Assembly: GCA_947458985.1 (NCBI GenBank)
Contig: CANHBA010000001.1
Span: 1-39,797 of the forward strand
Reading direction: 5' to 3'
DNA: 39,797 nt
Origin: Flavobacteriales bacterium
GTDB lineage: Bacteria > Bacteroidota > Bacteroidia > Flavobacteriales_D > Crocinitomicaceae
Shown here: positions 2,183 to 34,399 of the stretch, piece by piece
Position numbering within the stretch: the stretch's first letter is position 1
Layout: the number at the start of each line of letters is the position of its first letter
Made by a program: the position numbers and the translations under genes
The notes under the pieces: model-generated
What the model saw: only the letters and a program-made list of their open reading frames with translations
Told to the model about the DNA's origin: nothing
The model's database searches: none

Positions 2183-2725
2183 CTAATCTCTAAACACAAC
2201 CCTACGGTAAATAACCGCAATGAGCAGGCTATTGAGGGTTCCGTAAACCAAAAGGGCCAATAAGCTGACACTTAAAGTAAATTGTGGGTCGTACATCATG
2301 GCAGTGTTTTGTCGCGCCATGGCTACTATCTCTGCATCGCTTTTGTTTTCTAGCGCGCTGTTGCCATTGCGAATAGCTGCAATTTCTTCTGGGCTATCCA
2401 TTTTGCGTTCAAACGCAGCTCTTTTTTGTTCATTGAACTCAGGATAGATGTCCTGGTAATAAAAAAACAAAAAGAAACTCACCAAAAGAGTGTAGGGAAG
2501 GCCCACGGTAACGCCCGCTTTGATGTCGGTTAGGAAGTTGCTCTCTTCGGTGTTGGTTCTTTTTTTGTGGTACATAAACAACGCAATAGCGCTGGTCAGG
2601 AAAGCCATATTGAGCAAGACGAAAATTTGGATTTCATCTAAGCGCCAATTGCACCAAAAAGCAAGCATTTTGAGCGCAATCCAAAGACCGCTAAACACCA
2701 AGCCGTAATGCCAACCTTTTTTCAT
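2183..2725 (-). CDS. small multi-pass membrane protein (DUF4199-like)
   Basis: 180 aa with about 4 hydrophobic helices separated by a soluble loop. Its ATG overlaps the rho stop by 1 nt (TAATG at 2727..2723). Confidence 0.55.
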   Translation of the reverse strand: MKKGWHYGLVFSGLWIALKMLAFWCNWRLDEIQIFVLLNMAFLTSAIALFMYHKKRTNTEESNFLTDIKAGVTVGLPYTLLVSFFLFFYYQDIYPEFNEQKRAAFERKMDSPEEIAAIRNGNSALENKSDAEIVAMARQNTAMMYDPQFTLSVSLLALLVYGTLNSLLIAVIYRRVVFRD

Positions 2726-4386
2726 TAGCTATTCATTGAAACTAAAAACTCTTCGTTGGAGAGTGTGTTTTCCATATGTGATTTCATGAATTCCATGGCT
2801 TCAACTGGGTTCATGTCGGCGATAAACTTGCGCAGGAGCCAAACGCGTTGTAAGACGTCTTTACCGACAAGTAAGTCTTCGCGACGTGTTCCTGATGCCG
2901 TAATGTCAATGGCAGGGTAGATGTGTCGGTTAGAAATTTTGCGGTCGAGTTGGAGCTCCATGTTGCCTGTTCCTTTGAATTCTTCAAAGATGACTTCATC
3001 CATTTTAGAACCGGTTTCGGTAAGTGCAGTGGCGAGAATAGAGAGTGAACCTCCGTTTTCGATTTTACGCGCAGAACCAAAGAATCTTTTTGGTTTGTGC
3101 AAGGCATTGGCGTCGACACCACCCGAAAGCACTTTGCCTGAAGCAGGGGAAACGGTATTGTAGGCACGTGCCAAACGCGTGATGGAATCTAGTAAGATAC
3201 AGACGTCGTGTCCGCATTCTACCATGCGTTTTGCTTTTTCGAGTACCATATTGGCCACCTTTACGTGGCGGTCAGCTGGTTCGTCAAAAGTAGAGGCAAT
3301 GACTTCTGCTTTTACAGAACGCGCCATGTCGGTTACCTCTTCAGGACGCTCGTCAATGAGCAAAACAATCAGATAGGTTTCAGGATGATTCGCGGCAATG
3401 GCGTTAGCTACGTCTTTTAGGAGCATGGTTTTCCCCGTCTTAGGTTGAGCGACAATCATGCCGCGCTGTCCTTTTCCGATGGGCGCAAAAAGATCCATAA
3501 CTCTTGTGGAGAGTGTTTCTTGAGCGTGGCCTGTGAGTTTGAATTTTTCGGACGGGAAGAGCGGAGTAAGGTATTGAAAAGGAACGCGGTCTCGGATGTA
3601 AGAAGGGTCGCGGCCGTTGATAGATTCTACTTTAACAAGCGGAAAGAATTTTTCACCTTCTCTAGGTGGGCGAATGGTGCCCTTAACGGTGTCTCCGGTT
3701 TTTAGACCAAAGAGTTTGATTTGATTTTGAGAAACATAGATGTCGTCTGGTGAGGGCAAATAGTTGTAGTCTGAAGAACGCAAGAAGCCATAGCCATCTT
3801 GAATCACTTCTAAAACACCTTCTGCTGAAACGATGCCAACGAGGTCGAAGTGTTCTTCTTTGATGACTTCTTCTTGATTTTCGTTAGGCTGGCGCTGCTG
3901 ACGTTGATTTGGATTTTGGTTCGGATTGCGGTTCTCGAAACGTTGGCCTTGTTGTTGGTTTTGATTTTGGTGCTGATGTTGCGGCTTTCGTTGTTGAATT
4001 TGTCCGTCTGGCTGTTCTTGACTTTGCTCGCTGGCTTCTGGCGCAGTACGCGTTTGTTTCTTCTGAAAGCGTTCTCGTTTTTCATCTTTGAGAACTGGCG
4101 TATCCAAAACTAGCGCTACTTCTTCAACAACAGGCGTTTCGTCGCTTACCACGATTCTGGGCTTGCGACCACGTTTGCGGACTTCAGGTTGAGCGTCTGT
4201 TGTTGCAACAGGTGCTGCTGCTTCAGTTACGGGGCCTGCATTTTCAACAGGTGCTGAGCTGTTTTTACCTGTAATTGCGGCAATGAGTTCGTTTTTCTTG
4301 AGACTGCCGGCATCAATGCCAAGGCTTTGTGCAATTACACGTAGGTCCGAGATTTTTTTACTCTCTAAGGTCTTTAAATCCATCAA
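2725..4386 (-). CDS. rho: transcription termination factor Rho with a ~135-aa disordered N-terminal insertion
   Basis: Rho_N helix bundle ([13 protein letters not shown]), cold-shock-like RNA-binding domain ([14 protein letters not shown]) and Walker A (AQPKTGKT) are present. The C-terminal ATPase region is conserved. 553 aa. Confidence 0.95.
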
Positions 4387-4491
4387 TGGTATGTTATAAG
4401 CTGAATTTGGAGCTGGCCCTGAAATGGGCGATTGGAAATTCGATGCAAGTTTAAGTAAAAAAACGCGAAAATGAATGCGATTTGCTAAAAA

Positions 4492-5766
4492 CTATGTTTT
4501 GCGTTTTTGTTTTTTGGCAGCAGGAAACAATATGTTGTTCAAAATGAGGCGGTAACCTGGTGAGTTGGGGTGTAAATTGAGGTCTGTTGGAGGGTCGCCT
4601 ACAAGGTGTTGGTAGTCTTCGGGGTCGTGGCCTCCGTAGAAAGTCCAGGTGCCTTGGCCAAATTCGCCATGCACGTATTTGGCGGTGTTGGCGGCTTTGT
4701 TTTCGCCCAAAATAAGTACGTTTGACTTAATGAATTCTTTGTGGAAGTCGGTGGTTTGGCCCAAGAAGCCGTTGATGACGTCGACATGACACTGCGTGAG
4801 CATGGTTGGCACGACATCCCATTTGGCAGAGAAATCAAAGAGTGTAAATTGATCGGTTTTTTCGGTGATTTGGCGTTGAGTGCGCAGATCGGTGCCATCG
4901 ATGTCGCTGTATTCGTAGACCATTGGGTCTTTGATGATGTGAAAATCTTCAAAAGCAAAGGTTTGGCCGAAGTCTAGTTTGCCTTGCGCATTGGGGTCGG
5001 AGGGGGTGCCGTCAAAGACCGCTTCTTGGATGTCTACGTTTTGTGCGGCCAATGCAATGTCGAAAGAATCGGTGCCCGAGCACATGGTGAATAAGAAACC
5101 TCCTCCAATGACAAAATTCCGAATGTTTAAAGCCACGGCACGTTTGAGCGCTGCCGTAGAAGCAAAGCCTAATTTGGTCGCTGCTGCTTCAGAGCGTTGG
5201 ACTTCTTGCTGGTACCAACTTTGCATGCGTGCCGAGCTGTAGAATTTACCATATTGCCCAGTGAAATCTTCGTGGTGTAGGTGCAGCCAGTCGTATTTAG
5301 GCAAAATACCATTGACAATAGCGGAGTCGTAGATTTTGTCGTATTTGATTTCGGCGTATGTCAGGACAAGCGTAACGGCGTCGTCCCAGGGAAGTTTGTT
5401 GGGTGGGGTATAAACGGCAATTTTGGGCGCTTTTTCTAGCTGCACTACTTCCATATTGACCTCTGGGTTGGCAATTTCATTTTTGATTTGATTGACCTGA
5501 CCTTCGGCTAAAATTTGGTAGCTGATGTTGCGCAGTAATAATTCTTCTTCGATGCGTTGCAAGTGCGGAATCAGAAAGCTACCGCCACGGTAATTGAGCA
5601 ACCACTCAATGGTGATTTGGTTTTCGAGGGTCCAGTAGGCCAAACCGTAGGCTTTCAGGTGGTCGCGTTGGGAGTCGTCCATTGGCACTAGGATTTGACT
5701 AGACCAACTCTGAAAACTGATACAAAAGGCGAAAAAGGTGAAAAGAAGGCTAGAACGGATCTTCAT
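4492..5766 (-). CDS. conserved secreted hypothetical protein (possible class-I glutamine-amidotransferase-like fold)
   Basis: I chose the internal ATG at 5766, which gives MKIRSSLLFTFFAFCISFQSWS, a signal peptide. The track start at 5865 would overlap dnaB by 116 nt. The FTMCSGTD nucleophile-elbow-like motif is weak evidence for function. Confidence 0.55.
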   Translation of the reverse strand: MKIRSSLLFTFFAFCISFQSWSSQILVPMDDSQRDHLKAYGLAYWTLENQITIEWLLNYRGGSFLIPHLQRIEEELLLRNISYQILAEGQVNQIKNEIANPEVNMEVVQLEKAPKIAVYTPPNKLPWDDAVTLVLTYAEIKYDKIYDSAIVNGILPKYDWLHLHHEDFTGQYGKFYSSARMQSWYQQEVQRSEAAATKLGFASTAALKRAVALNIRNFVIGGGFLFTMCSGTDSFDIALAAQNVDIQEAVFDGTPSDPNAQGKLDFGQTFAFEDFHIIKDPMVYEYSDIDGTDLRTQRQITEKTDQFTLFDFSAKWDVVPTMLTQCHVDVINGFLGQTTDFHKEFIKSNVLILGENKAANTAKYVHGEFGQGTWTFYGGHDPEDYQHLVGDPPTDLNLHPNSPGYRLILNNILFPAAKKQKRKT

Positions 5767-11694: not shown

Positions 11695-13209
11695 CTAATT
11701 TTTGAGCAATTTAAATTGTTGGCGTCCGACCGACAAGAAGTAAGTTCCTGCAGGAAAAGAACTGAGGTCAAGTTGCTGTTCTAGGGTACCCATTAAAACT
11801 ACTTTTCCATCTTGGTTACAAACTTCGAAAGCTTGCCCGTTACAGACTACTGGAACTTCAAAAATACCAAAACTAGGATTGGGGTAAATAGGCAAAGCTG
11901 TAGGGATTTGCTGCACAAAATTGGTGCTGTCGTTTTGATTGTAGCGATTGAGGTAGATTTTCAAACTGCCACTGCGTACATCGCCCCAAACAGTATAAAG
12001 TTGATTGTTTTGAAATTGTACATTTAAGAAGTCGTTGCCATTTTCAAGTAAGATGGAATCGTGTGCAACATTCGGGCTAATTGTAAATTCGGCGCCCCAA
12101 GACTGATTGCTTTGAATGCGGCAAAAGATTTGGCTGGCGCTACTATAAGTTCCAGGGCTGCCATTGCGGCGGTCTCGCCAGCAAACGGCAAGGTCGCCAT
12201 CGGTGTCGTAGTCTGCCCAAATTAAATCTTGTATAACGCCATTGGCTTGCGGGTCGTTGTTTACTCTGGATGGTGCACTCCATGTGCTGCCATTTTTTTC
12301 AATAAAGGCGATATCAGGATCTCCAAATACAGCAGTCATAAAGAAATAGGCAGCGCGTCCAGAATTAGTTGGGTCAAGCGCCAAATGCGGGCCGCTCTTG
12401 AGGGTGTCGTTTCCGGCGCCAAAGCCAAGGCCTTGAAAGGCTGTTTGGTAGCTGTAAAATGATGCAGGTGCGGTTTTGTTGACCTCTACCACTCTAGGTA
12501 AAATACTCTGGGCTGTTTCAAAGCTTGGATACGCTGCCATAAATGTGCCGTCGTTGGCAAATGCAGGCGAAGGCATTGGTTGAGGTATCGCGCTGCCCGC
12601 TAAAAACGGCGCTGCATCGAGTTCTTGTAAACTGAAGCTCGCACCGCCATCTGATGAGATTGCCGTATAAGGATGATACGGTGCTTGCACAAGTGTTGGT
12701 TGCTTGGCGTTTGTACTCGTAATGACGATGCTTCCTGTTAATGGATCTACTGCAATCCAAGGGCGGTCAATACACAGTTTATTCGGACATGAAGCGATGG
12801 ATCTTGCCAACACGGCTGCCCCCCAACTGAGGCCTCCATCGGTGGATTTTCTGCAAATGACGGCGCCATTTGTAAAATTGACGTTGTCGTAGTCAATATA
12901 TGCCATGTAAAGGTTGCCATTGAGGTCAAAGCCGAGCGAAACATCGGCACTGCTGTTGCCTGCTTGTTGATGCGCTTGCCAAACAGGCGCTGACCACGTG
13001 TTGCCTCCATCTAATGAAACAACGCTTTTGATCACAATTTTTTGATTGAATTGAAAACCCATCCAGGCCGCCACCAAATGTTGCTCATTTTGGGGATTGA
13101 CTGCCAAATACGGCTCACCTTCAAAAATATTTCCGCTCGAGATTAGTGTGTTTTGTGCAGTTGCGCTTAGCAGTGAAAAAGCGCTAAGCAACAATAATAA
13201 TAACTTCAT
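11695..13209 (-). CDS. secreted BNR/Asp-box (sialidase-like beta-propeller) protein with T9SS C-terminal sorting domain
   Basis: Asp-boxes SLDGGNTW, STDGGLSW and SSDGGASF. Signal peptide MKLLLLLLSAFSLLSATAQ from the internal ATG at 13209. The C-terminus (IYPNPSFGIFEV...GTYFLSV...FKLLKN) is typical of a T9SS CTD. Confidence 0.75.
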   Translation of the reverse strand: MKLLLLLLSAFSLLSATAQNTLISSGNIFEGEPYLAVNPQNEQHLVAAWMGFQFNQKIVIKSVVSLDGGNTWSAPVWQAHQQAGNSSADVSLGFDLNGNLYMAYIDYDNVNFTNGAVICRKSTDGGLSWGAAVLARSIASCPNKLCIDRPWIAVDPLTGSIVITSTNAKQPTLVQAPYHPYTAISSDGGASFSLQELDAAPFLAGSAIPQPMPSPAFANDGTFMAAYPSFETAQSILPRVVEVNKTAPASFYSYQTAFQGLGFGAGNDTLKSGPHLALDPTNSGRAAYFFMTAVFGDPDIAFIEKNGSTWSAPSRVNNDPQANGVIQDLIWADYDTDGDLAVCWRDRRNGSPGTYSSASQIFCRIQSNQSWGAEFTISPNVAHDSILLENGNDFLNVQFQNNQLYTVWGDVRSGSLKIYLNRYNQNDSTNFVQQIPTALPIYPNPSFGIFEVPVVCNGQAFEVCNQDGKVVLMGTLEQQLDLSSFPAGTYFLSVGRQQFKLLKN

Positions 13210-13242
13210 ATTTTTGGTATTAAAGGCAAGAAACAACTTTAC

Positions 13243-13271
13243 AAAAATAAAAAAGCCACTCGAGAGTGGCT
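13243..13271 (-). terminator. rho-independent terminator after the M16 pair
   Basis: Minus strand: AGCCACT-CTCG-AGTGGCT followed by a T-rich run. Confidence 0.7.
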
Positions 13272-13282
13272 TTAAAATTGGT

Positions 13283-15364
13283 CTAAAAATCGGTGGGCAA
13301 TACTGCTTTCGGATTGACTTCAATAGTTTTGACAACTCCGTTTAAGGTCATTTTGCCAACGCTCATGCTGAAGGAGTGAGCGAACATCATGCCGTTGACA
13401 AGCTTGAAGTCAGAGAAAGATGTTGTTGTTTCTACGAGTTCATCGCCAACTTTGCGCAGGTTGGTAGAACGCAGCTTCATGAAAGTATTGGTTGTGAAGT
13501 AATCGTAGTTCTCAGCTTGGCCGTCGGTGGTGTATAACACATAGCAATCTTGACCATCAATGGCTTCAATGCCTTTGAGTTCGTAGTTCATGCCTTTGGC
13601 CTTGTAGTTGAGTTCAGGGATGAGCCCGCTCGCTTTTTGCTTGGCAGCGATTTCTTCTGCTTTGAGGTCTTCGCGGCCATTTTGCATGCTAAACGTGTAG
13701 CCGCTTACGCCGTCAAAATATGATTTTTGCAAAACCATTCCGGGCATTTCCATTTTGCTCGCTTCTTTGACACCTTCCCAGAAGTAGTCTGTAGAGCTAA
13801 GGGCAAAAGGAATTTGCTCCGAACTCAACTCAGAAACACGCACATATGATTTGATCGCTTTTACTTTTTTGAGCGCGGCTTTTTTAGAGCTGGTTGCTGT
13901 CAGGGCCATTACATAACTATCGAGGAGTTGATCGGCGCTGATATCAGCTGTTTTGGTTTCTTTGATGGCAGCACCAAAAGCATCTAGTTTCTCGATTTTA
14001 CCGTCACTGTCGAAAGGCAAGAGTTTGGGTAAAATTTCTTCGTTACCCACCACAATAATGTGGCAGTTTTTGGCGGTGAAATACTGTTGGGCAACGCGGA
14101 GGACATCTTCTTTGGTAATGGCCTCGAGTTGTTGCAAGTACTTTTGGTAGTAATCCGGAGCTAATTTTAGTTTGATGGTATTCAAGGCAAAACGCGCAAC
14201 TGTTTGCGGACGCTCCAAAGAACGTGCAAAACCACCAGCCATGTTGTTTTTAGTGAGGCTGAGTTCTTCGTCGGTAACCTGCGCTTCAATGATACCTGCA
14301 AATTCTTTCAGGATTTCAGTGATGGCGGAGTCCGTTACTGCATTTTTGAAATTGCCACCCGCAGACATCCAAGAGCCATTTTCGGTGATGTTCAAAGAGG
14401 AATAACAGCCGTAAGTAAAGGCTTTGTCTTCGCGAAGGTTTTGCATCAGGCGCGTCCCAAAACCGCCCCCGCCTAAAATGCCGTTCAAGACATTTAGTGC
14501 GAGTTGGTCTTTGTGACCTGCGCGCATATCAATAGGAAAGGTGACATATACAACAGATTGTACAGCTCCCGGTTTTTTGACAAAAATGACGCGGTTGCCT
14601 TTGTCAAATTGGCCTTTGCCTAAAGAAGCTTGGTAAGCTGGCCCACCTTGCCATGTCGCAAAATAAGTTTGAACCAACGCTTCGGTTTCAGCTCTTGTGA
14701 TGTCGCCCACAACAACTAAATAACTCCCTTGCGGGGTAAAAGTGCTTTTGTAGTAAGCGAGTAGGTCTTCGCGTGAAATATTTTGAAGTGTGGCTTCGGT
14801 CATGATTTCGCCGAGCGGATGGTTCGGAAAGTTTACAGCGCGCGTGGCATTGCTGGCCATCTCTCCTGCGTCTGCTTTGGTCGATTGCAAGCCCGATAAA
14901 TTTTGCTTGCGCACGCGTTCTACTTCGCTTTCAGGGAAGTTGGCATTGTACAACACGTCGGTCATGAGGTCGAGGCCTTTACTGAGGTGCTTGGTGAGGC
15001 AACCTAAGTACATGCTAGAAGAACCAGCAGAAAGATCGGCGCCGATGAAGTCGATTTCGCGATCGAGTTGGTCTTTGGAGCGGGTAGTGGTACCCGACAT
15101 CAGTAAAGAACCAGTAAAATCAGCCAAACCTGCTTTGTTACCTTCTAAGCGCGGCGTGTTGCCGAGACTCAGTTCGATAGATACTTTTGGAATTTTGTGG
15201 TTTTCAGATAAAATAACCGTGATTCCATTTGAGGTTGTGAAAACCTGCGAAGCAGGAATGTTGATTTTTTGTGCCGCCGCTGGAGCTGGTCTTTGAGATC
15301 GATCGAGTTGTGCAAAAACACTGTTGGTCAAGATCAATACCACGAGGAGATATAGACTTTTCAT
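13283..15364 (-). CDS. M16 (pitrilysin) family protein, non-catalytic partner with an extra ~230-aa C-terminal domain
   Basis: M16 fold signature is present, but the HxxEH position reads FTGSLLMSGT. Signal peptide MKSLYLLVVLILTNSVFAQ. 693 aa. It starts 6 nt downstream of the catalytic M16 gene. Confidence 0.8.
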   Translation of the reverse strand: MKSLYLLVVLILTNSVFAQLDRSQRPAPAAAQKINIPASQVFTTSNGITVILSENHKIPKVSIELSLGNTPRLEGNKAGLADFTGSLLMSGTTTRSKDQLDREIDFIGADLSAGSSSMYLGCLTKHLSKGLDLMTDVLYNANFPESEVERVRKQNLSGLQSTKADAGEMASNATRAVNFPNHPLGEIMTEATLQNISREDLLAYYKSTFTPQGSYLVVVGDITRAETEALVQTYFATWQGGPAYQASLGKGQFDKGNRVIFVKKPGAVQSVVYVTFPIDMRAGHKDQLALNVLNGILGGGGFGTRLMQNLREDKAFTYGCYSSLNITENGSWMSAGGNFKNAVTDSAITEILKEFAGIIEAQVTDEELSLTKNNMAGGFARSLERPQTVARFALNTIKLKLAPDYYQKYLQQLEAITKEDVLRVAQQYFTAKNCHIIVVGNEEILPKLLPFDSDGKIEKLDAFGAAIKETKTADISADQLLDSYVMALTATSSKKAALKKVKAIKSYVRVSELSSEQIPFALSSTDYFWEGVKEASKMEMPGMVLQKSYFDGVSGYTFSMQNGREDLKAEEIAAKQKASGLIPELNYKAKGMNYELKGIEAIDGQDCYVLYTTDGQAENYDYFTTNTFMKLRSTNLRKVGDELVETTTSFSDFKLVNGMMFAHSFSMSVGKMTLNGVVKTIEVNPKAVLPTDF

Positions 15365-21096: not shown

Positions 21097-21591
21097 TTAG
21101 TAAAGGAATACTTTTGCGTCAGTAGGGCTGAGGTCAACCTCGACGTGGTTCTTGAGGGTAGTAGAAAGACTCAAGCCCGCAAAATCTGTTTTGATTGGGT
21201 AGCGGCGGTGTTGGCGATCGATGAGCGCTACGGTTTTGATGGCTTTGGTAGCTTGCTCTAAAAATTTCAATAAAGCATATTGCATGGTTTTGCCGCTGTT
21301 CACAACGTCGTCAATAAGGACGATGTATGAATTTTTGAGGTCTTTTTGAGGTATAGAAAAGGCAATTGCATCACTCCATGGCTCGTCTTTATTGAGCTGG
21401 ATTTCAAAACAAACCACTTTTAATGGGCTATTTTGTGAAACGACGTCGGAGAGCATTTGCGCTAAAACAAAGCCGTTACCAACAATGCCACCTAAATAAA
21501 TCACTTCTTGGTCAAATGCAGCCTCGATGAGCTGATGGCCCAAGCGAACGATTTTTTGTTGAATTTGCTGCTGATTGAGTATTGTTTGCAT
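21097..21591 (-). CDS. pyrR: PyrR-like phosphoribosyltransferase (pyrimidine operon regulator/UPRTase family)
   Basis: PRPP loop VLIDDVVNSGKT followed by VALIDRQHRRYPIKTDFAG, which resembles PyrR. The stop abuts the murQ ATG (TAAATG). The start at 21591 is supported by a -7 box. Confidence 0.6.
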   Translation of the reverse strand: MQTILNQQQIQQKIVRLGHQLIEAAFDQEVIYLGGIVGNGFVLAQMLSDVVSQNSPLKVVCFEIQLNKDEPWSDAIAFSIPQKDLKNSYIVLIDDVVNSGKTMQYALLKFLEQATKAIKTVALIDRQHRRYPIKTDFAGLSLSTTLKNHVEVDLSPTDAKVFLY

Positions 21592-21613: not shown

Positions 21614-21644
21614 AAAAAGGCCACTCGTTTAAGTGGCCTTTTTT
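21614..21644 (-). terminator. rho-independent terminator after the riboswitch-controlled gene
   Basis: Minus strand: GGCCACT-TAAACG-AGTGGCC followed by TTTTT. An A-run on the other side makes it formally bidirectional. Confidence 0.75.
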
Positions 21645-21660: not shown

Positions 21661-22914
21661 TTACTGCTTGATGAGCTTGATGCTGCTTTTTTCGGTGTTC
21701 AAAAAGTAGATCCCGCTTTCAAAATTACTGAGGTCGATGCTGTTGTTTTGGCCCGTCAAAATGATTTGACCGGTGGTGTTCACAATTTGATAAGTTTGAT
21801 TCAAACCTAAGCCATTGATTTGAAAAACACCATTAGAAGGATTGGGTGCAACGCCGATTTGCTCGCTGCTTTCATTTAGGCCTACGTTTGATCTGAGGTC
21901 AAAAACGATGGTGCCCGGAGATACGCCTACTGCAAATTGGTGACTTAGCGAATTGGTTGCATCATAAATTTGAACCATTCCTTGAGAGAAGAAATCGGTG
22001 GTAGTCGTGTACAAAAGGCCATTGATTGGTTCTTGTGCAAGTTCGTAGAAGTTATTGACGATGCCGGCTACTGGTCCAACGTTGCTCATGCTGAGGAGGT
22101 TGTAGTCGTTGAGGGTGTTTTCCATGGAAATTTGATAGACGAGTTTGTCGTCGCGGAGTGCTGAGGTACCACAACCTGTTACCGCGCTTGCAATGTTTTG
22201 GGTGTTGACGTTGCCGCTTAAACTCACTTTTGAAACAGATGCGCCGGACCAATCTTTGTTGTTGACGGTATAAATTTCATTATTAAACAAGAACATGTTG
22301 TCAGGGTTCGTGCCCTCTGCACCTAGGTCGATTTCTGAGCCGTATTGTAAGGTGCTGAGGTTGAGTTGGCCGATCAAGCCTTTTTCGTTGCCCCACTCAT
22401 AGGCGTTGTTGATGGCGATGTATGCGATGTCATTGGCTACAACAATATTTTGAGCAGCCCATTTTGGACCATTCGTAGTGTCAAAAGCAGCGATCAATTG
22501 AAGGCTATTTTTGTCAAATACTTGTAAGTAAGAATCAAAAGTTTGAAGGTATTCACCGCGTGTGGCGATGAGTTTGTTGCCTGAAATAGCCAAATTGCGT
22601 ACGCCTGGCAAGCTGATGCTTCCTACTTCTTGATGCGTATTTAAATCGAATTTGTAGATTTTAGTGTCGGCGGCTACATAGTAAAAGTTGCCATCGATAA
22701 TGACATCTGAACTAAAACGTTGGCCAGCGAGCGTGTTGGCTACTTGATAGGTTTGTGTTTGCGGGTTGTAGCTGCCAATGGTAGCAGGTTCTACAATGTT
22801 GTTGGTTTGAAAGTCAAAGTAACCTTCGTTGGCAATGAGCACTTGGTGCACATATTGCTGGGCAAATGCGGTGGCGCAAAACAATGCTGCCGAAAATAAC
22901 AATCCTTTTTTCAT
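21661..22914 (-). CDS. secreted beta-propeller-like protein with T9SS C-terminal sorting domain; B12-riboswitch controlled
   Basis: Signal peptide MKKGLLFSAALFCATAFAQ from ATG 22914. It has repeated blade-like segments. The CTD reads VAPNPSNGVFQING...GIYFLNTEKSSIKLIKQ. A cobalamin riboswitch sits in its 5' leader. Confidence 0.7.
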   Translation of the reverse strand: MKKGLLFSAALFCATAFAQQYVHQVLIANEGYFDFQTNNIVEPATIGSYNPQTQTYQVANTLAGQRFSSDVIIDGNFYYVAADTKIYKFDLNTHQEVGSISLPGVRNLAISGNKLIATRGEYLQTFDSYLQVFDKNSLQLIAAFDTTNGPKWAAQNIVVANDIAYIAINNAYEWGNEKGLIGQLNLSTLQYGSEIDLGAEGTNPDNMFLFNNEIYTVNNKDWSGASVSKVSLSGNVNTQNIASAVTGCGTSALRDDKLVYQISMENTLNDYNLLSMSNVGPVAGIVNNFYELAQEPINGLLYTTTTDFFSQGMVQIYDATNSLSHQFAVGVSPGTIVFDLRSNVGLNESSEQIGVAPNPSNGVFQINGLGLNQTYQIVNTTGQIILTGQNNSIDLSNFESGIYFLNTEKSSIKLIKQ

Positions 22915-22983
22915 GTGTTGAAAATTAAAATAATTAAACAATGACATGGAAAAAAGTGGAGCGACAAGGGTATACGAAGCCCT

Positions 22984-23178
22984 TGGCGATACCGACTTTA
23001 ATCTGAAGTCTTCACGCAGTTCGAGGGCAAGTCTTCTGGCTCGTGCCTTTTGTGGTATCGCCTTCCCGCTTGCGCAGTGGCTAATAGATACTACTTTTGA
23101 AGCACTTACAGCTGCAGATACAGCTCCGGATTCTAACCGGATTCCTTATTAAGTCCGACAAGCGAACACCCAAGAACG
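22984..23178 (-). promoter_or_regulatory. cobalamin (B12) riboswitch
   Basis: The minus strand contains AAGGAATCCGGTTAGAATCCGGAGCTG...GCAGCTGTAAG, then AGCCACTGCGCAAGCGGGAAGGCG, then the B12 box GAGCCAGAAGACTTGCC. A putative P1 pairs GTTCTTGGG (23177..23169) with CCCTCGAAC (23027..23019). It lies about 70 nt upstream of ATG 22914. Confidence 0.8.
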
Positions 23179-23181
23179 GCA

Positions 23182-23189
23182 CAAAGGTA
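23182..23189 (-). promoter_or_regulatory. -7 box TAccTTTG driving the riboswitch transcript
   Basis: The minus-strand TACCTTTG ends 4 nt before the first nucleotide of the proposed P1 helix. Confidence 0.5.
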
Positions 23190-23235
23190 GCAATAAAAAC
23201 CACATGCGATTTTTGTCTGAATCAAAAAGAGTTCG

Positions 23236-23243
23236 TATCTTTG
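23236..23243 (+). promoter_or_regulatory. -7 box TAtcTTTG (with TTG 20 nt upstream at 23213) for rpsO-pnp
   Basis: Matches TTG-N20-TAnnTTTG. It leaves a ~55-nt leader before the rpsO ATG. Confidence 0.5.
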
Positions 23244-23252
23244 CAGCCGTAT

Positions 23253-23267
23253 TGACCAGAGTGGTCA
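23253..23267 (+). promoter_or_regulatory. hairpin in the rpsO 5' leader (possible S15 autoregulatory element)
   Basis: TGACCA-GAG-TGGTCA perfect 6-bp stem. S15 is known to autoregulate through leader structures in several phyla. Confidence 0.3.
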
Positions 23268-23300
23268 GTCTACATAATAATCATTTACACAAATATTAGC

Positions 23301-23570
23301 ATGTATTTAGATTCAGCAAAGAAGAAAGAGATCTTCGCCAAACACGGTGGTTCAGAAAACAACACCGGTTCTACAGAAGGCCAAGTTGCCTTGTTTACAT
23401 TTCGTATTGCTCACCTTACTGAGCACTTGAAAAAGAACCGCAAAGACTTCGGCACCCAACGTTCACTTCAGTTGTTAGTTGGTAAACGTCGTAGCTTGTT
23501 AGACTACCTAAAGGCAAAAGACATCGAGAAATACCGCGCCTTGATCAAAGAATTAGGACTACGTCGTTAA
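23301..23570 (+). CDS. rpsO: 30S ribosomal protein S15
   Basis: 89 aa. GSTEGQVALFTFRIAHLTEHLKKNRKD...LVGKRRSLLDYL is canonical S15. Confidence 0.95.
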   Translation: MYLDSAKKKEIFAKHGGSENNTGSTEGQVALFTFRIAHLTEHLKKNRKDFGTQRSLQLLVGKRRSLLDYLKAKDIEKYRALIKELGLRR

Positions 23571-25938: not shown

Positions 25939-28617
25939 ATGAAAAAAGGTTTACTTTTTATACTTACCATCTTGAGCCTCAATGCCTTTGCGCAGGCTTT
26001 TGAATCATTCAACTTTACGGGTTCGGCCAATGCAAACGGCTGGGCAACGCACAGTGGTACAGCAGCTCAGGTTGTTGCCATTACAACGCCATCAGGAAGC
26101 GGGAATAGCCTTACCTATTCGGGTCTTCAAGCTTCAGTAGGTAACCGCATTGAACTGAATTCAGCTTGGTCAGAAGACATCAACAAACCAGTTGTCATTC
26201 CAGGTACAACTGGGTATTTTTCATTCTTGATGAACGTGCTCAACACGACAGGATTAACAGCAGCAGGTAATTATTTCATTGGTTTTGCTGCTTCTGCAGG
26301 TACAACCAACGTAACCATTTTCTTTCCGCGTTTATACATCAAGTTAGGCACTACCCCAAATACCTTTCAGCTAGGTATCTTAAATACTTCAGGTGGAACT
26401 GTGTCAATTTCATACGCACCTACAGAGTATGCACTAAACACAACTTTATTTGTAGTTGCCAAAGCAACATCCACGGCCGTGGGTTCTCCTATTACCGCAT
26501 CCCTTTGGGTCAATCCAATTCCAGGTGCAGCTGAGCCAGCTGCTGTTGTGACCAACTCTTCGGGTACCAGCAACTGGGCGGCAACCGGTATTCAATCTAT
26601 ATATCTCCGTCAAGCAGCAGGTACGGGCAATTACGAAATCGACGAAATTCGCGCAGGTGAAACCTGGGCTTCAGTAACGCCAGGGTCTGCAGCATCTTGT
26701 GTCACTTACAACACCATTACTGCAACGGCTTGTAATACTTATGCTTTGAACAATCAAACGTATACCACTTCAGGTACGTATGTGCAAACGCTCGCGAATG
26801 CAAACGCTGCGGGTTGCGACTCTATCATCAACTTGAATTTGACCATCAACAATGCCAATAGTTCAACCTTGAACATTACCAACTGTGGTCCTTACACTTT
26901 AAACAACCAAACCTATAGCGCTTCTGGAGCCTACACCCAACTTACTCAAAACGTTGCTGGTTGCGACAGCACCATTAACCTCAATTTAACCATTGTTGGT
27001 TCCCTAACTTACTATCAAGATTTAGACAACGACGGCTACGGAAATGCAGCGGTTTCTCAAACGGGTTGTGCAGCCATTACGGGTTATGTAACAAATAGCA
27101 CTGACTGTAATGACAACAACAACGCTATTTATCCTGGTGCAGTGGATATCGCTGGAAATGGCATTGACGAAGACTGCAATGGTTTTGATGCACCTTTGCA
27201 ATTGGGTATTTATCAGTTTGCGGCAACAGTTGATTGCGCTACTCAAGACGTAGCTGCCACAAATACAAGTACCAGCTGGACTTTCTCAGATTTCACTGCG
27301 CAAGGCAATAGCTGTGCAGCAGGCGGTGGTGTTTTTAACCGCAGCGGATGGAATCAAACTGCTATTTTAGACTTGAATCAATACAATGAATTTACAGTGA
27401 GTGGTGCCAATTGTTCGAACCTCAATTTGTCTAAATTGGCCTTGAACCACCGCACCAGTACAACAGGTGGAACACCAACCATTTTTGTGCGTTCAAGCTT
27501 GGATAATTTTGCTACTGACATCGATACAATTGCTTCCTCTTGGAATGGCAATGTAGCTTTAGCTGACACCGTACTTTTACCAGCAACATTTGCTAATGTG
27601 AGTTCAGTAACTTTCCGTTTCTATGTCATTAACCAAGCAACAGCTACTTCTACCTTGCGCATGGACAATGTTTCTGTATGGGGAAATACAATTACCATTA
27701 CACCTTCATTGTTCTATGCCGATACCGACAACGACGGTTTTGGAGATGCCGCCAATGACTCACTTTCTTGTTCTGCTCCTGTAGGTTATGTAGCGAATAG
27801 CACCGATTGCAATGACAACGATGCCTTGGTGAACCCAACTACCATTTGGTACCAAGATCTAGACAACGACCAAGTAGGTAATGCTGCTGTTAGTCAAGTT
27901 GCTTGCTTGCAACCTGCAGGTTATGTATTGGCCAACGGCGACTGCGACGACAACAACGCAGCTGTTGTAGCACCAGTTATTTATTACACCGATGCCGACA
28001 ACGATGGTTTTGGCGACGACGCTACGGCAACTCCTTTCTGTCAAGCACCAGTCAACATGATCGCTATCGGTGGCGACTGCAACGATTCCAACAACGCTAT
28101 TTATCCAGGCGCACCTGAAATTTGCGATGGTTTTGATAACAATTGTAACGGTACCAATGACGAAGGTCTTACTTTCTTGAATTACTATTTCGATGGAGAT
28201 GACGACGGTTATGGTATTGGCAACCCTACAGTTTCTTGTACGCCTTTAACAGGTTACGCCACCCTCACCGGCGACTGCGATGACAGCAATGATACAGTTT
28301 ATCCTGGTGCTACTGATACCGAAGGCAACAACGTAGATGAAAACTGTGACGGTGTAGACGGCGTGCTTGGTTTGAACACAATTGAACTCAGTGCTCAAAT
28401 TGCACCAAATCCGACCAACGGAAGTATTCAAATCACTTTGAATCAAGTTGGCAGCGGTCAAATTCAGATATTGGATTTGAATGGTAAGGTTTTAATCAAC
28501 AAACAATTGAACGGAGCTACCGCGCAGATCGATTTGGGTTCTTTACAACAAGGTACTTATTTAGTAAGTATATTAACAACCCAAAAACCTATCGTTCAAC
28601 GCATCAACAAAATGTAA
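25939..28617 (+). CDS. large T9SS-secreted surface protein with five MopE-like Cys-rich DxDxDG repeats
   Basis: Signal peptide MKKGLLFILTILSLNAFAQ. Five units fit the pattern Y-x-D-x-D-N-D-G-(F/Y)-G...C...GYV...DC(N/D)D.N...PGA. There are two copies of a C..Y.LNNQTY..SG.Y.Q......GCDS.INLNLTI module. The CTD reads IAPNPTNGSIQITL...GTYLVSI. Confidence 0.75.
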   Translation: MKKGLLFILTILSLNAFAQAFESFNFTGSANANGWATHSGTAAQVVAITTPSGSGNSLTYSGLQASVGNRIELNSAWSEDINKPVVIPGTTGYFSFLMNVLNTTGLTAAGNYFIGFAASAGTTNVTIFFPRLYIKLGTTPNTFQLGILNTSGGTVSISYAPTEYALNTTLFVVAKATSTAVGSPITASLWVNPIPGAAEPAAVVTNSSGTSNWAATGIQSIYLRQAAGTGNYEIDEIRAGETWASVTPGSAASCVTYNTITATACNTYALNNQTYTTSGTYVQTLANANAAGCDSIINLNLTINNANSSTLNITNCGPYTLNNQTYSASGAYTQLTQNVAGCDSTINLNLTIVGSLTYYQDLDNDGYGNAAVSQTGCAAITGYVTNSTDCNDNNNAIYPGAVDIAGNGIDEDCNGFDAPLQLGIYQFAATVDCATQDVAATNTSTSWTFSDFTAQGNSCAAGGGVFNRSGWNQTAILDLNQYNEFTVSGANCSNLNLSKLALNHRTSTTGGTPTIFVRSSLDNFATDIDTIASSWNGNVALADTVLLPATFANVSSVTFRFYVINQATATSTLRMDNVSVWGNTITITPSLFYADTDNDGFGDAANDSLSCSAPVGYVANSTDCNDNDALVNPTTIWYQDLDNDQVGNAAVSQVACLQPAGYVLANGDCDDNNAAVVAPVIYYTDADNDGFGDDATATPFCQAPVNMIAIGGDCNDSNNAIYPGAPEICDGFDNNCNGTNDEGLTFLNYYFDGDDDGYGIGNPTVSCTPLTGYATLTGDCDDSNDTVYPGATDTEGNNVDENCDGVDGVLGLNTIELSAQIAPNPTNGSIQITLNQVGSGQIQILDLNGKVLINKQLNGATAQIDLGSLQQGTYLVSILTTQKPIVQRINKM

Positions 28618-33570: not shown

Positions 33571-33649
33571 TATATCATTGTTATTCAGTTTATTATTGGC
33601 GGTATCCGAAAAGCCACAAAAGAGTAGGAAAAACTAAACCTATCTATTT

Positions 33650-34399
33650 ATGTTATTTTCTTTATCTAGTGCACTTAACGTGCAAGCATTATTTGAAAAA
33701 GGAGACGTGTATACGTACACAGCGTTTACCTTCTTCATTGGAACAATGGCCATGATGGCTGCAGCTGCATTTTTCTTTATGGAAATGCGCAACATGGAAG
33801 AGAAGTGGAGAACCTCCATTTTAGTTTCCGGACTCATCACTTTCATTGCCGCTGTTCACTATTATTACATGCGTGATTACTTCACAGCAACTTCTACATC
33901 ACCAACGTTTTTCCGTTATGTAGACTGGATGCTCACAGTTCCACTCATGTGTGTTGAATTCTATTTGATCACCAAAAAAGCGGGTGCTAAAACAAGCTTA
34001 CTATGGAAACTTATCTTTGCTTCTGTTGTAATGCTCGTTACAGGTTACTTCGGTGAGTCAGTAGACCGCGACAACAGCGTTATGTGGGGTGTGCTTTCAG
34101 GAGCAGCTTATTTCTACATCGCTTATTTAGTATGGTTTGGCGAAGTGGCCAAATTGGCAGAATCAGCAGGTCCGGCTGTAGCTAAAGCAACACGCATTTT
34201 AGCTTGGTTTGTACTCGTTGGTTGGGCAATTTACCCACTTGGTTACATCATCGGTACGCCAGGCGGATTGTTTGGCGCATTTGGTAGCTCAGGTCCAAAT
34301 CCTTGGATGGATGTTGTTTACAACATCGGAGATGCCGTAAACAAAATCGGTTTTGGTTTGGTTATTTACGCATTGGCTAAATCTGATTCCAAAGCATAA
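33650..34399 (+). CDS. proteorhodopsin (light-driven proton pump, DTE motif, Met at the spectral-tuning site)
   Basis: RYVDWMLTVPLMCVEF gives D92/T96/E103, equivalent to PR D97/T101/E108. M100 is equivalent to tuning position 105. The Schiff-base region YNIGDAVNKIGFGL gives D228 and K232. 7 TM helices, 249 aa. Confidence 0.9.
   Translation: MLFSLSSALNVQALFEKGDVYTYTAFTFFIGTMAMMAAAAFFFMEMRNMEEKWRTSILVSGLITFIAAVHYYYMRDYFTATSTSPTFFRYVDWMLTVPLMCVEFYLITKKAGAKTSLLWKLIFASVVMLVTGYFGESVDRDNSVMWGVLSGAAYFYIAYLVWFGEVAKLAESAGPAVAKATRILAWFVLVGWAIYPLGYIIGTPGGLFGAFGSSGPNPWMDVVYNIGDAVNKIGFGLVIYALAKSDSKA

What the first reader, a model, noticed from the sequence alone, without database searches (positions are those of the whole stretch)
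21661..23189. Cobalamin riboswitch controls a stand-alone T9SS-secreted beta-propeller protein, a candidate extracellular corrinoid-capture protein
**Riboswitch evidence.** Track ORF 22946..23152 (+) is actually the antisense of a structured RNA. On the minus strand I read the hallmark cobalamin-riboswitch blocks: AAGGAATCCGGTTAGAATCCGGAGCTG...GCAGCTGTAAG, then AGCCACTG-CGCAAGC-GGGAAGGCG, then the B12 box GAGCCAGAAGACTTGCC. A TAccTTTG -7 box (23189..23182) ends 4 nt before the proposed P1 strand (23177..23169), so the transcript would begin at the aptamer.

**Regulated unit.** It is a single gene (22914..21661) closed by a strong terminator (21614..21644). There is no btuB or btuFCD next to it. 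The product has a signal peptide, blade-like repeats and a T9SS C-terminal sorting domain (VAPNPSNGVFQING...GIYFLNTEKSSIKLIKQ).

**Comparison and hypothesis.** In gut Bacteroides, riboswitch-controlled B12 loci encode the surface beta-propeller lipoprotein BtuG, which captures corrinoids for BtuB. Here the propeller is exported through the T9SS rather than lipid-anchored, and it is genetically uncoupled from a transporter. The working idea is a secreted or T9SS-anchored corrinoid scavenger in an aquatic, probably B12-auxotrophic bacterium. That function is inference only.
Basis: partly seen in the sequence, partly recalled or inferred. Interest (0 to 1): 0.7.

Follow-up and report, generated by a model that had tools for sequence, protein, structure and literature searches.

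The report
Riboswitch-controlled, T9SS-exported BtuG-like B12 catcher
A freshwater Bacteroidota genome has a vitamin-B12-sensing RNA switch controlling one gene for a secreted propeller protein that is a distant relative of BtuG, the gut-bacterial B12-capture protein. It carries a type IX secretion tag instead of a lipid anchor and has no B12 transporter gene beside it.

Summary
A full-length cobalamin riboswitch (RF00174, 94.9 bits, E 1.5e-22) lies at 23188..23009 (-). It starts at a TAnnTTTG -7 box. A conserved hairpin, a covarying terminator hairpin and a U-run follow, then a single 417-aa gene (22914..21661) closed by its own terminator.

The product has a Sec signal peptide, a seven-bladed beta-propeller and a type-A T9SS C-terminal domain.
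- The nine best PDB fold matches are all BtuG structures.
- A profile of 83 family members matches BtuG2 over its full length (E 8e-18).
- Three of 11 BtuG2 cobalamin-contact residues are identical. Nine of the 11 fall on invariant columns.
- The riboswitch precedes the gene in 78 of 78 testable orthologous loci and in 7 of 10 distant relatives in other gene neighbourhoods.
- Two Chitinophagales loci continue into a btuFCD-like ABC transporter.

It is not a canonical BtuG. It has no lipobox, no adjacent btuB and no Pfam DUF5074 match. Corrinoid binding, localisation and the outer-membrane partner are untested. No paper found describes a T9SS-type BtuG. I rate it a new variant of a known kind.

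The parts
23182..23189 (-). Bacteroidota-type -7 promoter box TACCTTTG (TAnnTTTG). Transcription would start at the 5' edge of the aptamer.
   Evidence: Sequence read. A TAnnTTTG box is at the equivalent position in 73 of 78 orthologous loci. No clear -33 TTTG element was seen. Promoter function is inferred.
23009..23188 (-). Cobalamin riboswitch aptamer (RF00174), including the B12 box
   Evidence: 94.9 bits against a gathering score of 31.5, E 1.5e-22, model positions 1-189 of 189. Conserved upstream of the orthologous gene in 78 of 78 testable loci. Confirmed by Rfam in L081 and L088.
22994..23013 (-). Nearly invariant hairpin GAAGACUUCAGAUUAAAGUC just 3' of the aptamer. It is a candidate P13/kissing-loop element of the expression platform.
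   Evidence: the stem GACUU/AAGUC is kept in 36 of 36 aligned leaders, with only G-U changes. Its role in switching is inferred.
22950..22993 (-). Leader terminator: an imperfect hairpin (22993..22958) with an invariant GG/CC base and a covarying upper stem, followed by a U-run (22955..22950)
   Evidence: among 53 distinct orthologous leaders nearly all fold into this hairpin, with a mean of -11.2 kcal/mol. It ends 2-3 nt before a run of 6-8 U, and the upper-stem sequence differs between clades. Window value: -11.0 kcal/mol.
21661..22914 (-). Gene for the 417-aa BtuG-like protein (stop codon included). Signal peptide residues 1-18 (22914..22861, predicted cleavage AFA|QQ). Seven-bladed propeller about residues 22-342 (22851..21889). 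T9SS type-A CTD residues 355-417 (21852..21664).
   Evidence: Translation, CTD, AF2 model, Foldseek, profile match to BtuG2, residue mapping. The start at 22914 is conserved (MKKGL...). The upstream in-frame ATG at 22947 directly follows the leader U-run.
21614..21643 (-). Intrinsic terminator that closes the single-gene unit
   Evidence: 13-pair stem with 5 G-C pairs and a 4-nt loop, followed by GCTGTTTGCT. The next gene, a phosphoribosyltransferase, has a candidate ATG start at 21591, downstream of the terminator.

Best explanation
This is a B12-repressed, single-gene unit for an extracellular corrinoid-capture protein.

1. Transcription starts at the aptamer from a TAnnTTTG promoter.
2. When intracellular cobalamin is plentiful, the riboswitch binds it and the downstream hairpin plus U-run terminates transcription in the leader.
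3. When cobalamin is scarce, transcription reads through.
4. The protein is exported by Sec, then moved across the outer membrane by the type IX secretion system through its type-A C-terminal domain.
5. Outside the cell, most likely still attached to the surface, its acidic seven-bladed propeller binds corrinoids on the same face as its distant homologue BtuG. It then passes them to a TonB-dependent transporter encoded elsewhere in the genome.

Shown here: the riboswitch, the conserved terminator, the domain architecture, homology to BtuG, and the conserved riboswitch-gene pairing. Inferred: the OFF logic, corrinoid binding, surface retention, and hand-over to BtuB.
For: Riboswitch and platform
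- RF00174 at 94.9 bits.
- Leader hairpin plus U-run conserved with covariation in 53 distinct leaders.
- -7 box conserved in 73 of 78 loci.

Protein
- CTD above the Pfam and NCBIfam cut-offs.
- N-terminus MKKGLLFSAALFCATAFA|QQ has no conserved lipobox cysteine.
- AF2 pLDDT 83.4 with about 29 strands, consistent with 7 blades.
- Top nine Foldseek PDB hits are all BtuG: 8okv, 8p97, 3dsm, 8bai and 8bn0, some solved with cyanocobalamin bound. E 1e-17 to 8e-15, rmsd about 3 A.
- The single sequence hits BtuG entries at E 6e-5. The profile of 83 relatives hits them at 8e-18 over residues 27-341 against 50-368.

Binding site
- BtuG2 contacts listed in PMC13616437 map as follows. Identical: E55 to E30, F58 to F33, Y316 to Y290. 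Similar: N107 to D83, Q219 to N203, Y239 to W222, Y335 to F308.
- Nine of the 11 mapped positions are invariant in 29 orthologues, against 119 of 319 columns overall.
- Mature propeller pI is 4.3, against 4.6 for BtuG2.

Context
- Riboswitch upstream in 78 of 78 testable orthologous loci from distinct species, at 54-93% amino-acid identity.
- Riboswitch upstream in 7 of 10 distant homologues with different neighbours.
- Two Chitinophagales loci read riboswitch, this gene, Peripla_BP_2, FecCD, ABC ATPase. The permease's best NCBIfam match is BtuC.
Against: - Only 21% identity to BtuG2. Three contact positions differ in kind (S131 to G104, Y196 to E177, S195 to N176). The loop alignments are HMM-based and uncertain.
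- No match to Pfam DUF5074 for this protein, and only 3 of 83 relatives match it weakly.
- No btuB within the window or adjacent in any of 12 Pfam-annotated contexts. How captured corrinoid would enter the cell is unknown.
- Three of 10 distant homologues have no riboswitch (L084, L085, L090).
- The antiterminator was not identified. The one good candidate pairing (GGCGAUACC with GGUAUCGCC) exists only in the closest relatives.
- No T9SS machinery gene lies in the window itself.
Confidence: 0.72

Rival explanations
1. It is a functionally orthodox BtuG. After T9SS export the protein is covalently anchored to the outer membrane through the usual CTD-sortase route. It then sits as a stable lid on a BtuB encoded elsewhere, as the lipoprotein BtuG does in Bacteroides. 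Only the anchoring chemistry and the gene order differ.
For: - Full-length homology and fold match to BtuG in BtuB-BtuG complex structures such as 8p97.
- Riboswitch control, as in Bacteroides btu operons (PMC6143338).
- In planktonic cells a surface-bound binder makes more sense than a freely diffusing one (inference).
Against: - btuB is not adjacent in any of 12 annotated contexts, whereas canonical btuG is next to btuB in 106 of 109 operons.
- The C-terminal attachment point would be at the opposite end of the chain from the N-terminal lipid anchor of BtuG. The geometry over BtuB would therefore differ (inference).
- Nothing here tests complex formation.
Confidence: 0.3
2. It is a freely released corrinoid-binding protein, a 'corrinophore' comparable to a hemophore. 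It scavenges B12 at a distance and returns it to a receptor, or it simply withholds B12 from competitors.
For: - The cargo carries a T9SS type-A CTD. From my own knowledge, many such cargos in Flavobacteria are released after CTD cleavage.
- The gene is a separate transcription unit, so it could be made in excess of any transporter.
- Purified BtuG2 can sequester cobamides away from competitors (PMC13616437).
Against: - In dilute lake water a soluble binder would largely be lost to the producer (inference).
- No receptor gene is linked to it.
- No localisation data exist.
Confidence: 0.2
3. The propeller has a function other than corrinoid binding. It might bind another ligand or act as an enzyme that becomes useful under B12 limitation. 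The riboswitch then only reports B12 status, as it does for metE or nrd genes.
For: - Cobalamin riboswitches also control B12-independent isozymes (established knowledge).
- Identity to BtuG2 is only 21%, and several contact residues differ.
- The more distant members of the family replace the NEG motif with NGG.
- Three of 10 distant homologues lack the riboswitch.
Against: - The only characterised homologues are B12 binders.
- The positions matching the BtuG2 binding face are the invariant ones.
- The operon link to a BtuC-like ABC importer in two lineages points to uptake.
- A secreted protein cannot replace a cytoplasmic B12-dependent enzyme.
Confidence: 0.1

Closest known systems
BtuG (BT1954/BtuG2, BT2095/BtuG3, BACUNI_02894; Pfam DUF5074), surface lipoproteins of gut Bacteroides that bind B12 with fM-pM affinity and cap BtuB
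   Same: - Seven-bladed beta-propeller, and the best structural matches.
- Full-length profile homology.
- The NEGxF motif with the Glu and Phe that contact cobalamin, plus other aromatic and polar positions conserved.
- Acidic surface.
- Expression under a cobalamin riboswitch.
- Found in Bacteroidota.
   Different: - No lipobox cysteine or lipoprotein export signal. It has a Sec signal peptide and a T9SS type-A CTD instead.
- Monocistronic and not next to btuB.
- About 21% identity and outside the Pfam DUF5074 model.
- Hosts are freshwater and environmental Flavobacteriales, Chitinophagales and Saprospiraceae, not gut Bacteroidales.
BtuJ (DUF4465) and BtuH, accessory extracellular B12-binding lipoproteins of B. 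thetaiotaomicron
   Same: A possible role as an outer capture layer that works upstream of the transporter and may be made in excess of it (PMC13616437).
   Different: Unrelated folds. They are lipoproteins or vesicle cargo, not T9SS cargo.
Classical cobalamin riboswitch (RF00174) with a transcription-terminator expression platform
   Same: Full aptamer with the B12 box, 5' of a B12-uptake-related gene, followed by a hairpin and U-run.
   Different: - It controls a single secreted-protein gene, not btuB, btuFCD or cob genes.
- The transcript appears to start directly at the aptamer.
- The switching helix has not been identified.
Secreted hemophores and HmuY-type surface heme binders
   Same: The same logic: an extracellular high-affinity binder for a tetrapyrrole cofactor, repressed when the nutrient is plentiful.
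   Different: No sequence or fold relationship. This is only an analogy for the released-protein reading.

Membership tests
Cobalamin riboswitch (Rfam RF00174) | Covariance-model score at or above the curated gathering score over the full model | tested here: met
   94.9 bits against 31.5, model positions 1-189 of 189, E 1.5e-22
Cobalamin riboswitch (Rfam RF00174) | Sense orientation in the 5' leader of the regulated gene, conserved among orthologues | tested here: met
   The aptamer ends 94 nt before the ATG. It is present in 78 of 78 testable orthologous loci and in 9 of 12 other contexts scanned with Rfam.
Cobalamin riboswitch (Rfam RF00174) | Ligand-dependent change in gene expression | not testable with these tools
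   A conserved terminator hairpin plus U-run is present. The response to B12 needs an experiment.
BtuG (Wexler et al. 2018; Pfam PF16819 DUF5074) | Seven-bladed beta-propeller fold matching BtuG2 | tested here: met
   Foldseek: the nine best PDB hits are BtuG structures, TM 0.75-0.81 normalised to the target, E down to 1e-17
BtuG (Wexler et al. 2018; Pfam PF16819 DUF5074) | Sequence membership of the family model PF16819 | tested here: not met
   No PF16819 hit at E up to 1 for the window protein. Only 3 of 83 relatives hit it, with a best E of 3.5e-4. Homology is detectable only profile-to-sequence, at E 8e-18.
BtuG (Wexler et al. 2018; Pfam PF16819 DUF5074) | N-terminal lipobox cysteine followed by a lipoprotein export signal (surface lipoprotein) | tested here: not met
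   The N-terminus is MKKGLLFSAALFCATAFAQQ. Cys13 has Phe at position -1 and is not conserved in orthologues. Only 6 of 150 family representatives show even a loose lipobox-like match.
BtuG (Wexler et al. 2018; Pfam PF16819 DUF5074) | Encoded next to btuB in the same riboswitch-controlled operon | tested here: not met
   No TonB-dependent receptor in the window. None is adjacent in 12 Pfam-annotated contexts. The riboswitch part of this feature is met.
BtuG (Wexler et al. 2018; Pfam PF16819 DUF5074) | Conservation of the cobalamin-contact residues of BtuG2 | tested here: inconclusive
   Of 11 residues, 3 are identical (E30, F33, Y290), 4 similar (D83, N203, W222, F308), 2 polar replacements (S69, N176) and 2 different (G104, E177). 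Nine of the 11 fall on invariant columns. The alignment in loops is uncertain.
BtuG (Wexler et al. 2018; Pfam PF16819 DUF5074) | High-affinity corrinoid binding and a stable complex with BtuB | not testable with these tools
   Needs purified protein and outer-membrane biochemistry
T9SS type-A cargo protein | C-terminal sorting domain above the curated thresholds (PF18962, TIGR04183) | tested here: met
   PF18962 at 37.7 bits (cut-off 27), residues 357-415. TIGR04183 at 32 bits (cut-off 23), residues 355-417. The CTD also matches solved CTDs 7pzj and 8glk.
T9SS type-A cargo protein | N-terminal Sec signal peptide | tested here: met
   By inspection: a basic n-region (MKK), a hydrophobic core and an AxA-type site AFA|QQ, conserved among orthologues as AQ|Q or AQ|N. 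No dedicated predictor was available.
T9SS type-A cargo protein | T9SS machinery present in the same organism | tested here: inconclusive
   The window holds two more CTD proteins but no machinery gene. Loci of homologues, not all from the same family, carry PorP/SprF, SprB-like, GldB and GldH genes (L088, L090, L092).

The most novel reading that the evidence does not exclude
Abundant freshwater and environmental Bacteroidota use the type IX secretion system to deploy a BtuG-derived corrinoid binder that is genetically and physically uncoupled from BtuB. It would act as a surface 'antenna' or a released 'corrinophore', made only under B12 starvation. This would be a new route of vitamin acquisition, and possibly of B12 withholding from competitors, in plankton. 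It would also be the first vitamin-uptake function assigned to T9SS cargo.
Probability: 0.3. Interest if true: 0.8.

Novelty: new variant of a known kind. Interest (0 to 1): 0.6.

Why it matters
B12 is made by few microbes and limits many aquatic ones. How planktonic Bacteroidota obtain it is poorly described.

BtuG has so far been defined as a gut-Bacteroidetes lipoprotein encoded next to btuB (PMC6143338; a September 2026 review, PMC13616437, says the same). This locus points to a sister family with these properties:
- 403 clusters at 50% identity match at E up to 0.001.
- Nearly all full-length members have a signal peptide, a propeller and a T9SS CTD.
- It is outside Pfam DUF5074.
- It is usually under its own cobalamin riboswitch.
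- It occurs across Crocinitomicaceae, Chitinophagales and Saprospiraceae.

If it binds corrinoids, four things follow:
- The BtuG capture principle extends from the gut to lakes.
- T9SS becomes linked to vitamin uptake.
- A large set of 'hypothetical T9SS sorting-domain proteins' gains an annotation.
- A small, soluble, easily expressed candidate B12 binder becomes available for biochemistry.

Tried and rejected
1. Antiterminator. The window has a perfect 9-nt complement between GGCGAUACC in the aptamer and GGUAUCGCC in the 5' arm of the terminator. It is present only in the closest relatives (window, L001, L003-L005), so I do not claim it as the conserved switch.
2. RNAalifold on the MAFFT alignment of the platforms found only the invariant hairpin. 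The variable stem was misaligned. Folding each leader separately showed the conserved terminator.
3. A homologue search with a 77-aa BtuG2 fragment returned only short fragments and no full-length BtuG. It did show that BtuG fragments carry PF16819 and are named 'YncE family protein'. The BtuG2 sequence 50-368 was rebuilt from the PDB alignment printout instead.
4. The idea that the riboswitch serves rpsO was rejected. rpsO is on the other strand and has its own S15 leader.
5. The lipoprotein reading was rejected: no lipobox.
6. The upstream in-frame ATG at 22947 (428 aa) was rejected as the start. It abuts the leader U-run and is absent from many orthologues.
7. One literature query was too broad and gave nothing useful.
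8. I could not test whether the same genomes hold btuB, a canonical btuG or B12-dependent enzymes elsewhere.
Full report

Yes. Rfam places a complete cobalamin riboswitch aptamer (RF00174) at 23188..23009 on the minus strand. It scores 94.9 bits against a gathering score of 31.5, with E 1.5e-22 and model positions 1-189 of 189. ORF 22946..23152 (+) from the ORF list is therefore antisense to a structured RNA and is spurious.

TACCTTTG occupies 23189..23182. This is the Bacteroidota TAnnTTTG -7 box, and it abuts the aptamer. The same box sits in the same place in 73 of 78 orthologous loci. I saw no clear -33 element.

The gene is 22914..21661 (-), 417 aa. A 13-pair hairpin plus T-run at 21643..21614 closes it. 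The next gene, a phosphoribosyltransferase, has a candidate ATG start at 21591.

I scanned 30 ORFs of at least 100 aa across the 39.8-kb window against Pfam. They are housekeeping genes (murC-like ligase, rho, dnaB, M16 peptidases, rpsO-pnp, M1 peptidase, a rhodopsin and others). None is a btuB or btuFCD gene.

**2. The leader**

Downstream of the aptamer I compared the leaders of orthologues. A 20-nt hairpin, GAAGACUUCAGAUUAAAGUC (23013..22994), is almost invariant. Its stem is kept in 36 of 36 aligned leaders, with only G-U changes.

A second, imperfect hairpin follows (22993..22958). Its GG/CC base is invariant and its upper stem has a different sequence in each clade while staying paired. 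It ends 2-3 nt before a run of 6-8 U (22955..22950 in the window). Over 53 distinct leaders the mean folding energy is -11.2 kcal/mol.

This is the anatomy of a transcription-terminating expression platform. All characterised cobalamin riboswitches are OFF switches (established knowledge), so B12 most likely causes termination in the leader.

I could not identify the antiterminator. The attractive GGCGAUACC/GGUAUCGCC pairing in the window is confined to the nearest relatives.

**3. The protein**

- *Export signals.* The N-terminus MKKGLLFSAALFCATAFA|QQ is a Sec signal peptide. The single cysteine has Phe at position -1 and is not conserved, so this is not a lipoprotein. The C-terminus is a type-A T9SS sorting domain: PF18962 at 37.7 bits and TIGR04183 at 32 bits, both above cut-off.
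- *Fold.* An AlphaFold2 model built on 29 orthologues has mean pLDDT 83.4 and pTM 0.75. It shows about 29 strands between residues 25 and 338, which fits seven four-stranded blades, plus a separate C-terminal sandwich.
- *Structural matches.* The nine best Foldseek hits in the PDB are all BtuG proteins. They are BT2095/BtuG3 with cyanocobalamin (8okv), BtuB3G3 (8p97), BACUNI_02894 (3dsm), BtuG2 with cyanocobalamin (8bai) and BT1954 (8bn0). E-values run from 1e-17 to 8e-15, TM-scores from 0.75 to 0.81 normalised to the target, and rmsd is about 3 A. The next hit, a designed generic propeller, is at E 1e-11 with TM 0.6.
- *Sequence homology.* The single sequence finds the BtuG entries weakly, at E 6e-5. 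A profile of 83 diverse relatives finds them at E 8e-18, aligned end to end: profile positions 27-341 against BtuG2 residues 50-368. The relationship is therefore homology, not only a shared fold.

**4. Binding-site comparison**

The 2026 review PMC13616437 lists the BtuG2 residues that contact adenosylcobalamin. The PDB chain 8bn0 carries the native numbering, since all eleven residue types check out. Aligning both proteins to the family HMM gives this mapping:

| BtuG2 | Window protein | Relation |
|---|---|---|
| E55 | E30 | identical |
| F58 | F33 | identical |
| Y316 | Y290 | identical |
| N107 | D83 | similar |
| Q219 | N203 | similar |
| Y239 | W222 | similar |
| Y335 | F308 | similar |
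| Q93 | S69 | polar replacement |
| S195 | N176 | polar replacement |
| S131 | G104 | different |
| Y196 | E177 | different |

Nine of the eleven land on columns that are invariant in the 29 orthologues. The background is 119 invariant columns out of 319. A simple binomial estimate of mine gives about 0.003 for that enrichment.

So the face that binds B12 in BtuG is the most constrained face here. The mature propeller is acidic (pI 4.3, against 4.6 for BtuG2). The loop alignments are model-based and could be off by a residue or two.

**5. Relatives and their neighbourhoods**

*Orthologues.* A scan of one genome per species returned 80 loci, almost all labelled as freshwater Crocinitomicaceae, 'Cryomorphaceae' or Flavobacteriales MAGs, at 54-93% protein identity. 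The riboswitch lies about 95-110 nt upstream on the same strand in 78 of them. In the other two the contig ends less than 110 nt upstream. Synteny (rpsO-pnp on one side, phosphoribosyltransferase-SIS-arginase on the other) is kept at 66% identity (L081).

*Wider family.* An exhaustive search with the propeller alone found 403 clusters (at 50% identity) with E up to 0.001. Nearly all full-length members have the same three parts: signal peptide, propeller and T9SS CTD. Only 6 of 150 show even a loose lipobox-like match. The NEGx[FY] motif persists down to about 30% identity, and more distant members have NGG instead. Pfam DUF5074, the model that covers BtuG, recognises only 3 of 83 members.

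*Distant members.* I looked at ten members (37-50% identity to the profile's first sequence, P0129) that sit in other gene neighbourhoods; named relatives in that search are Chitinophagales and Saprospiraceae.
- Rfam finds a cobalamin riboswitch directly upstream in seven: L082, L083, L086, L087, L089, L091 and L092.
- It finds none in three: L084, L085 and L090.
- The flanking genes differ from locus to locus, so the conserved unit is the riboswitch plus this gene.
- In L086 and L087 the unit continues into Peripla_BP_2, FecCD and an ABC ATPase. The permease's best NCBIfam match is BtuC (203 bits, below the equivalog cut-off).
- No context has an adjacent TonB-dependent receptor.

**6. Mechanism**

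The best-supported reading is as follows. Under B12 sufficiency the leader terminates. Under B12 limitation the cell makes an acidic BtuG-like propeller, exports it through Sec and the T9SS, and uses it outside the cell to capture corrinoids for a transporter encoded elsewhere.

Shown: the RNA elements, the domain architecture, homology to BtuG and the conserved association. Inferred: the direction of regulation, ligand binding, localisation and the hand-over. I put this at 0.72.

Within it, two sub-readings remain open. In one the protein is surface-anchored and caps BtuB like a normal BtuG. In the other it is released as a soluble binder. A non-corrinoid function is unlikely (about 0.1), given the homologues, the constrained binding face and the link to a btuC-like importer.

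**7. Comparison with what is known**

It works like BtuG but is not a member of the family as defined. Wexler et al. (PMC6143338) define BtuG homologues as lipoproteins with a lipobox cysteine and an export signal, encoded in 106 of 109 btuB operons of gut Bacteroidetes. Here the lipobox, the btuB adjacency and the Pfam model all fail. The fold, the riboswitch control and part of the binding site hold.

Full-text searches for BtuG together with T9SS, for cobalamin riboswitch together with type IX secretion, and for BtuG homologues across the phylum found no description of a T9SS-type BtuG. Absence from the searchable library is not proof of novelty.

**8. Verdict**

It is a new variant of a known kind. 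Interest is moderate to high, because the family is widespread in abundant freshwater Bacteroidota and the hypothesis can be tested directly with one small soluble protein.

Noticed in passing
window 33596..33630 (+) and 33650..34399 (+): A DUF805b RNA motif (RF02914, 45.2 bits against a gathering score of 35.6) sits 20 nt upstream of a bacteriorhodopsin-like gene (PF01036), not a DUF805 gene. It may be a regulatory element of a proteorhodopsin.
   Followed up: no
window 23182..23303: Two divergent transcription units stand back to back. The rpsO S15-Flavobacteria leader (RF03161, 23236..23303 +), whose first bases include a TATCTTTG -7 box, is about 47 nt from the TACCTTTG box of the riboswitch unit on the other strand.
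   Followed up: partly
window 22946..23152 (+) and 22947 (-): The 68-aa plus-strand ORF is antisense to the riboswitch and is spurious. An in-frame upstream ATG at 22947 yields the 428-aa gene calls seen in public databases (P0007, P0009, P0010), but it directly follows the leader U-run. The conserved start is 22914.
   Followed up: yes
L087 9855..10064 against gene start 10001: The public gene call of 480 aa (P0410) overlaps the Rfam riboswitch, so the start is over-extended. A member of the same cluster (P0498) is 428 aa.
   Followed up: partly
L086 11330..14264 and L087 11495..14429: In two Chitinophagales-type loci the riboswitch-controlled BtuG-like gene is followed on the same strand by Peripla_BP_2, a FecCD permease (best NCBIfam match BtuC) and an ABC ATPase. 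This is a btuFCD-like operon without btuB.
   Followed up: yes
L091 6868..8361: A gene for a B12-binding radical SAM enzyme lies 1.2 kb upstream of the riboswitch-BtuG-like unit, and a TonB-dependent-receptor-like gene lies at 2421..4673 on the same strand.
   Followed up: no
window 11695..13335 (-) and 25939..28617 (+): Two further T9SS CTD proteins are in the window: a BNR-like protein and an 892-aa protein with MopE-type putative metal-binding repeats. They indicate that the organism uses the T9SS widely.
   Followed up: no
L084 and L085, 9100..11300: In two of the three distant homologues without a riboswitch, the gene follows an AIRS-domain gene and an Rce1-like (CPBP protease) gene, with only 70-150 nt of spacer. 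This sub-lineage seems to have lost, or never had, B12 control.
   Followed up: no
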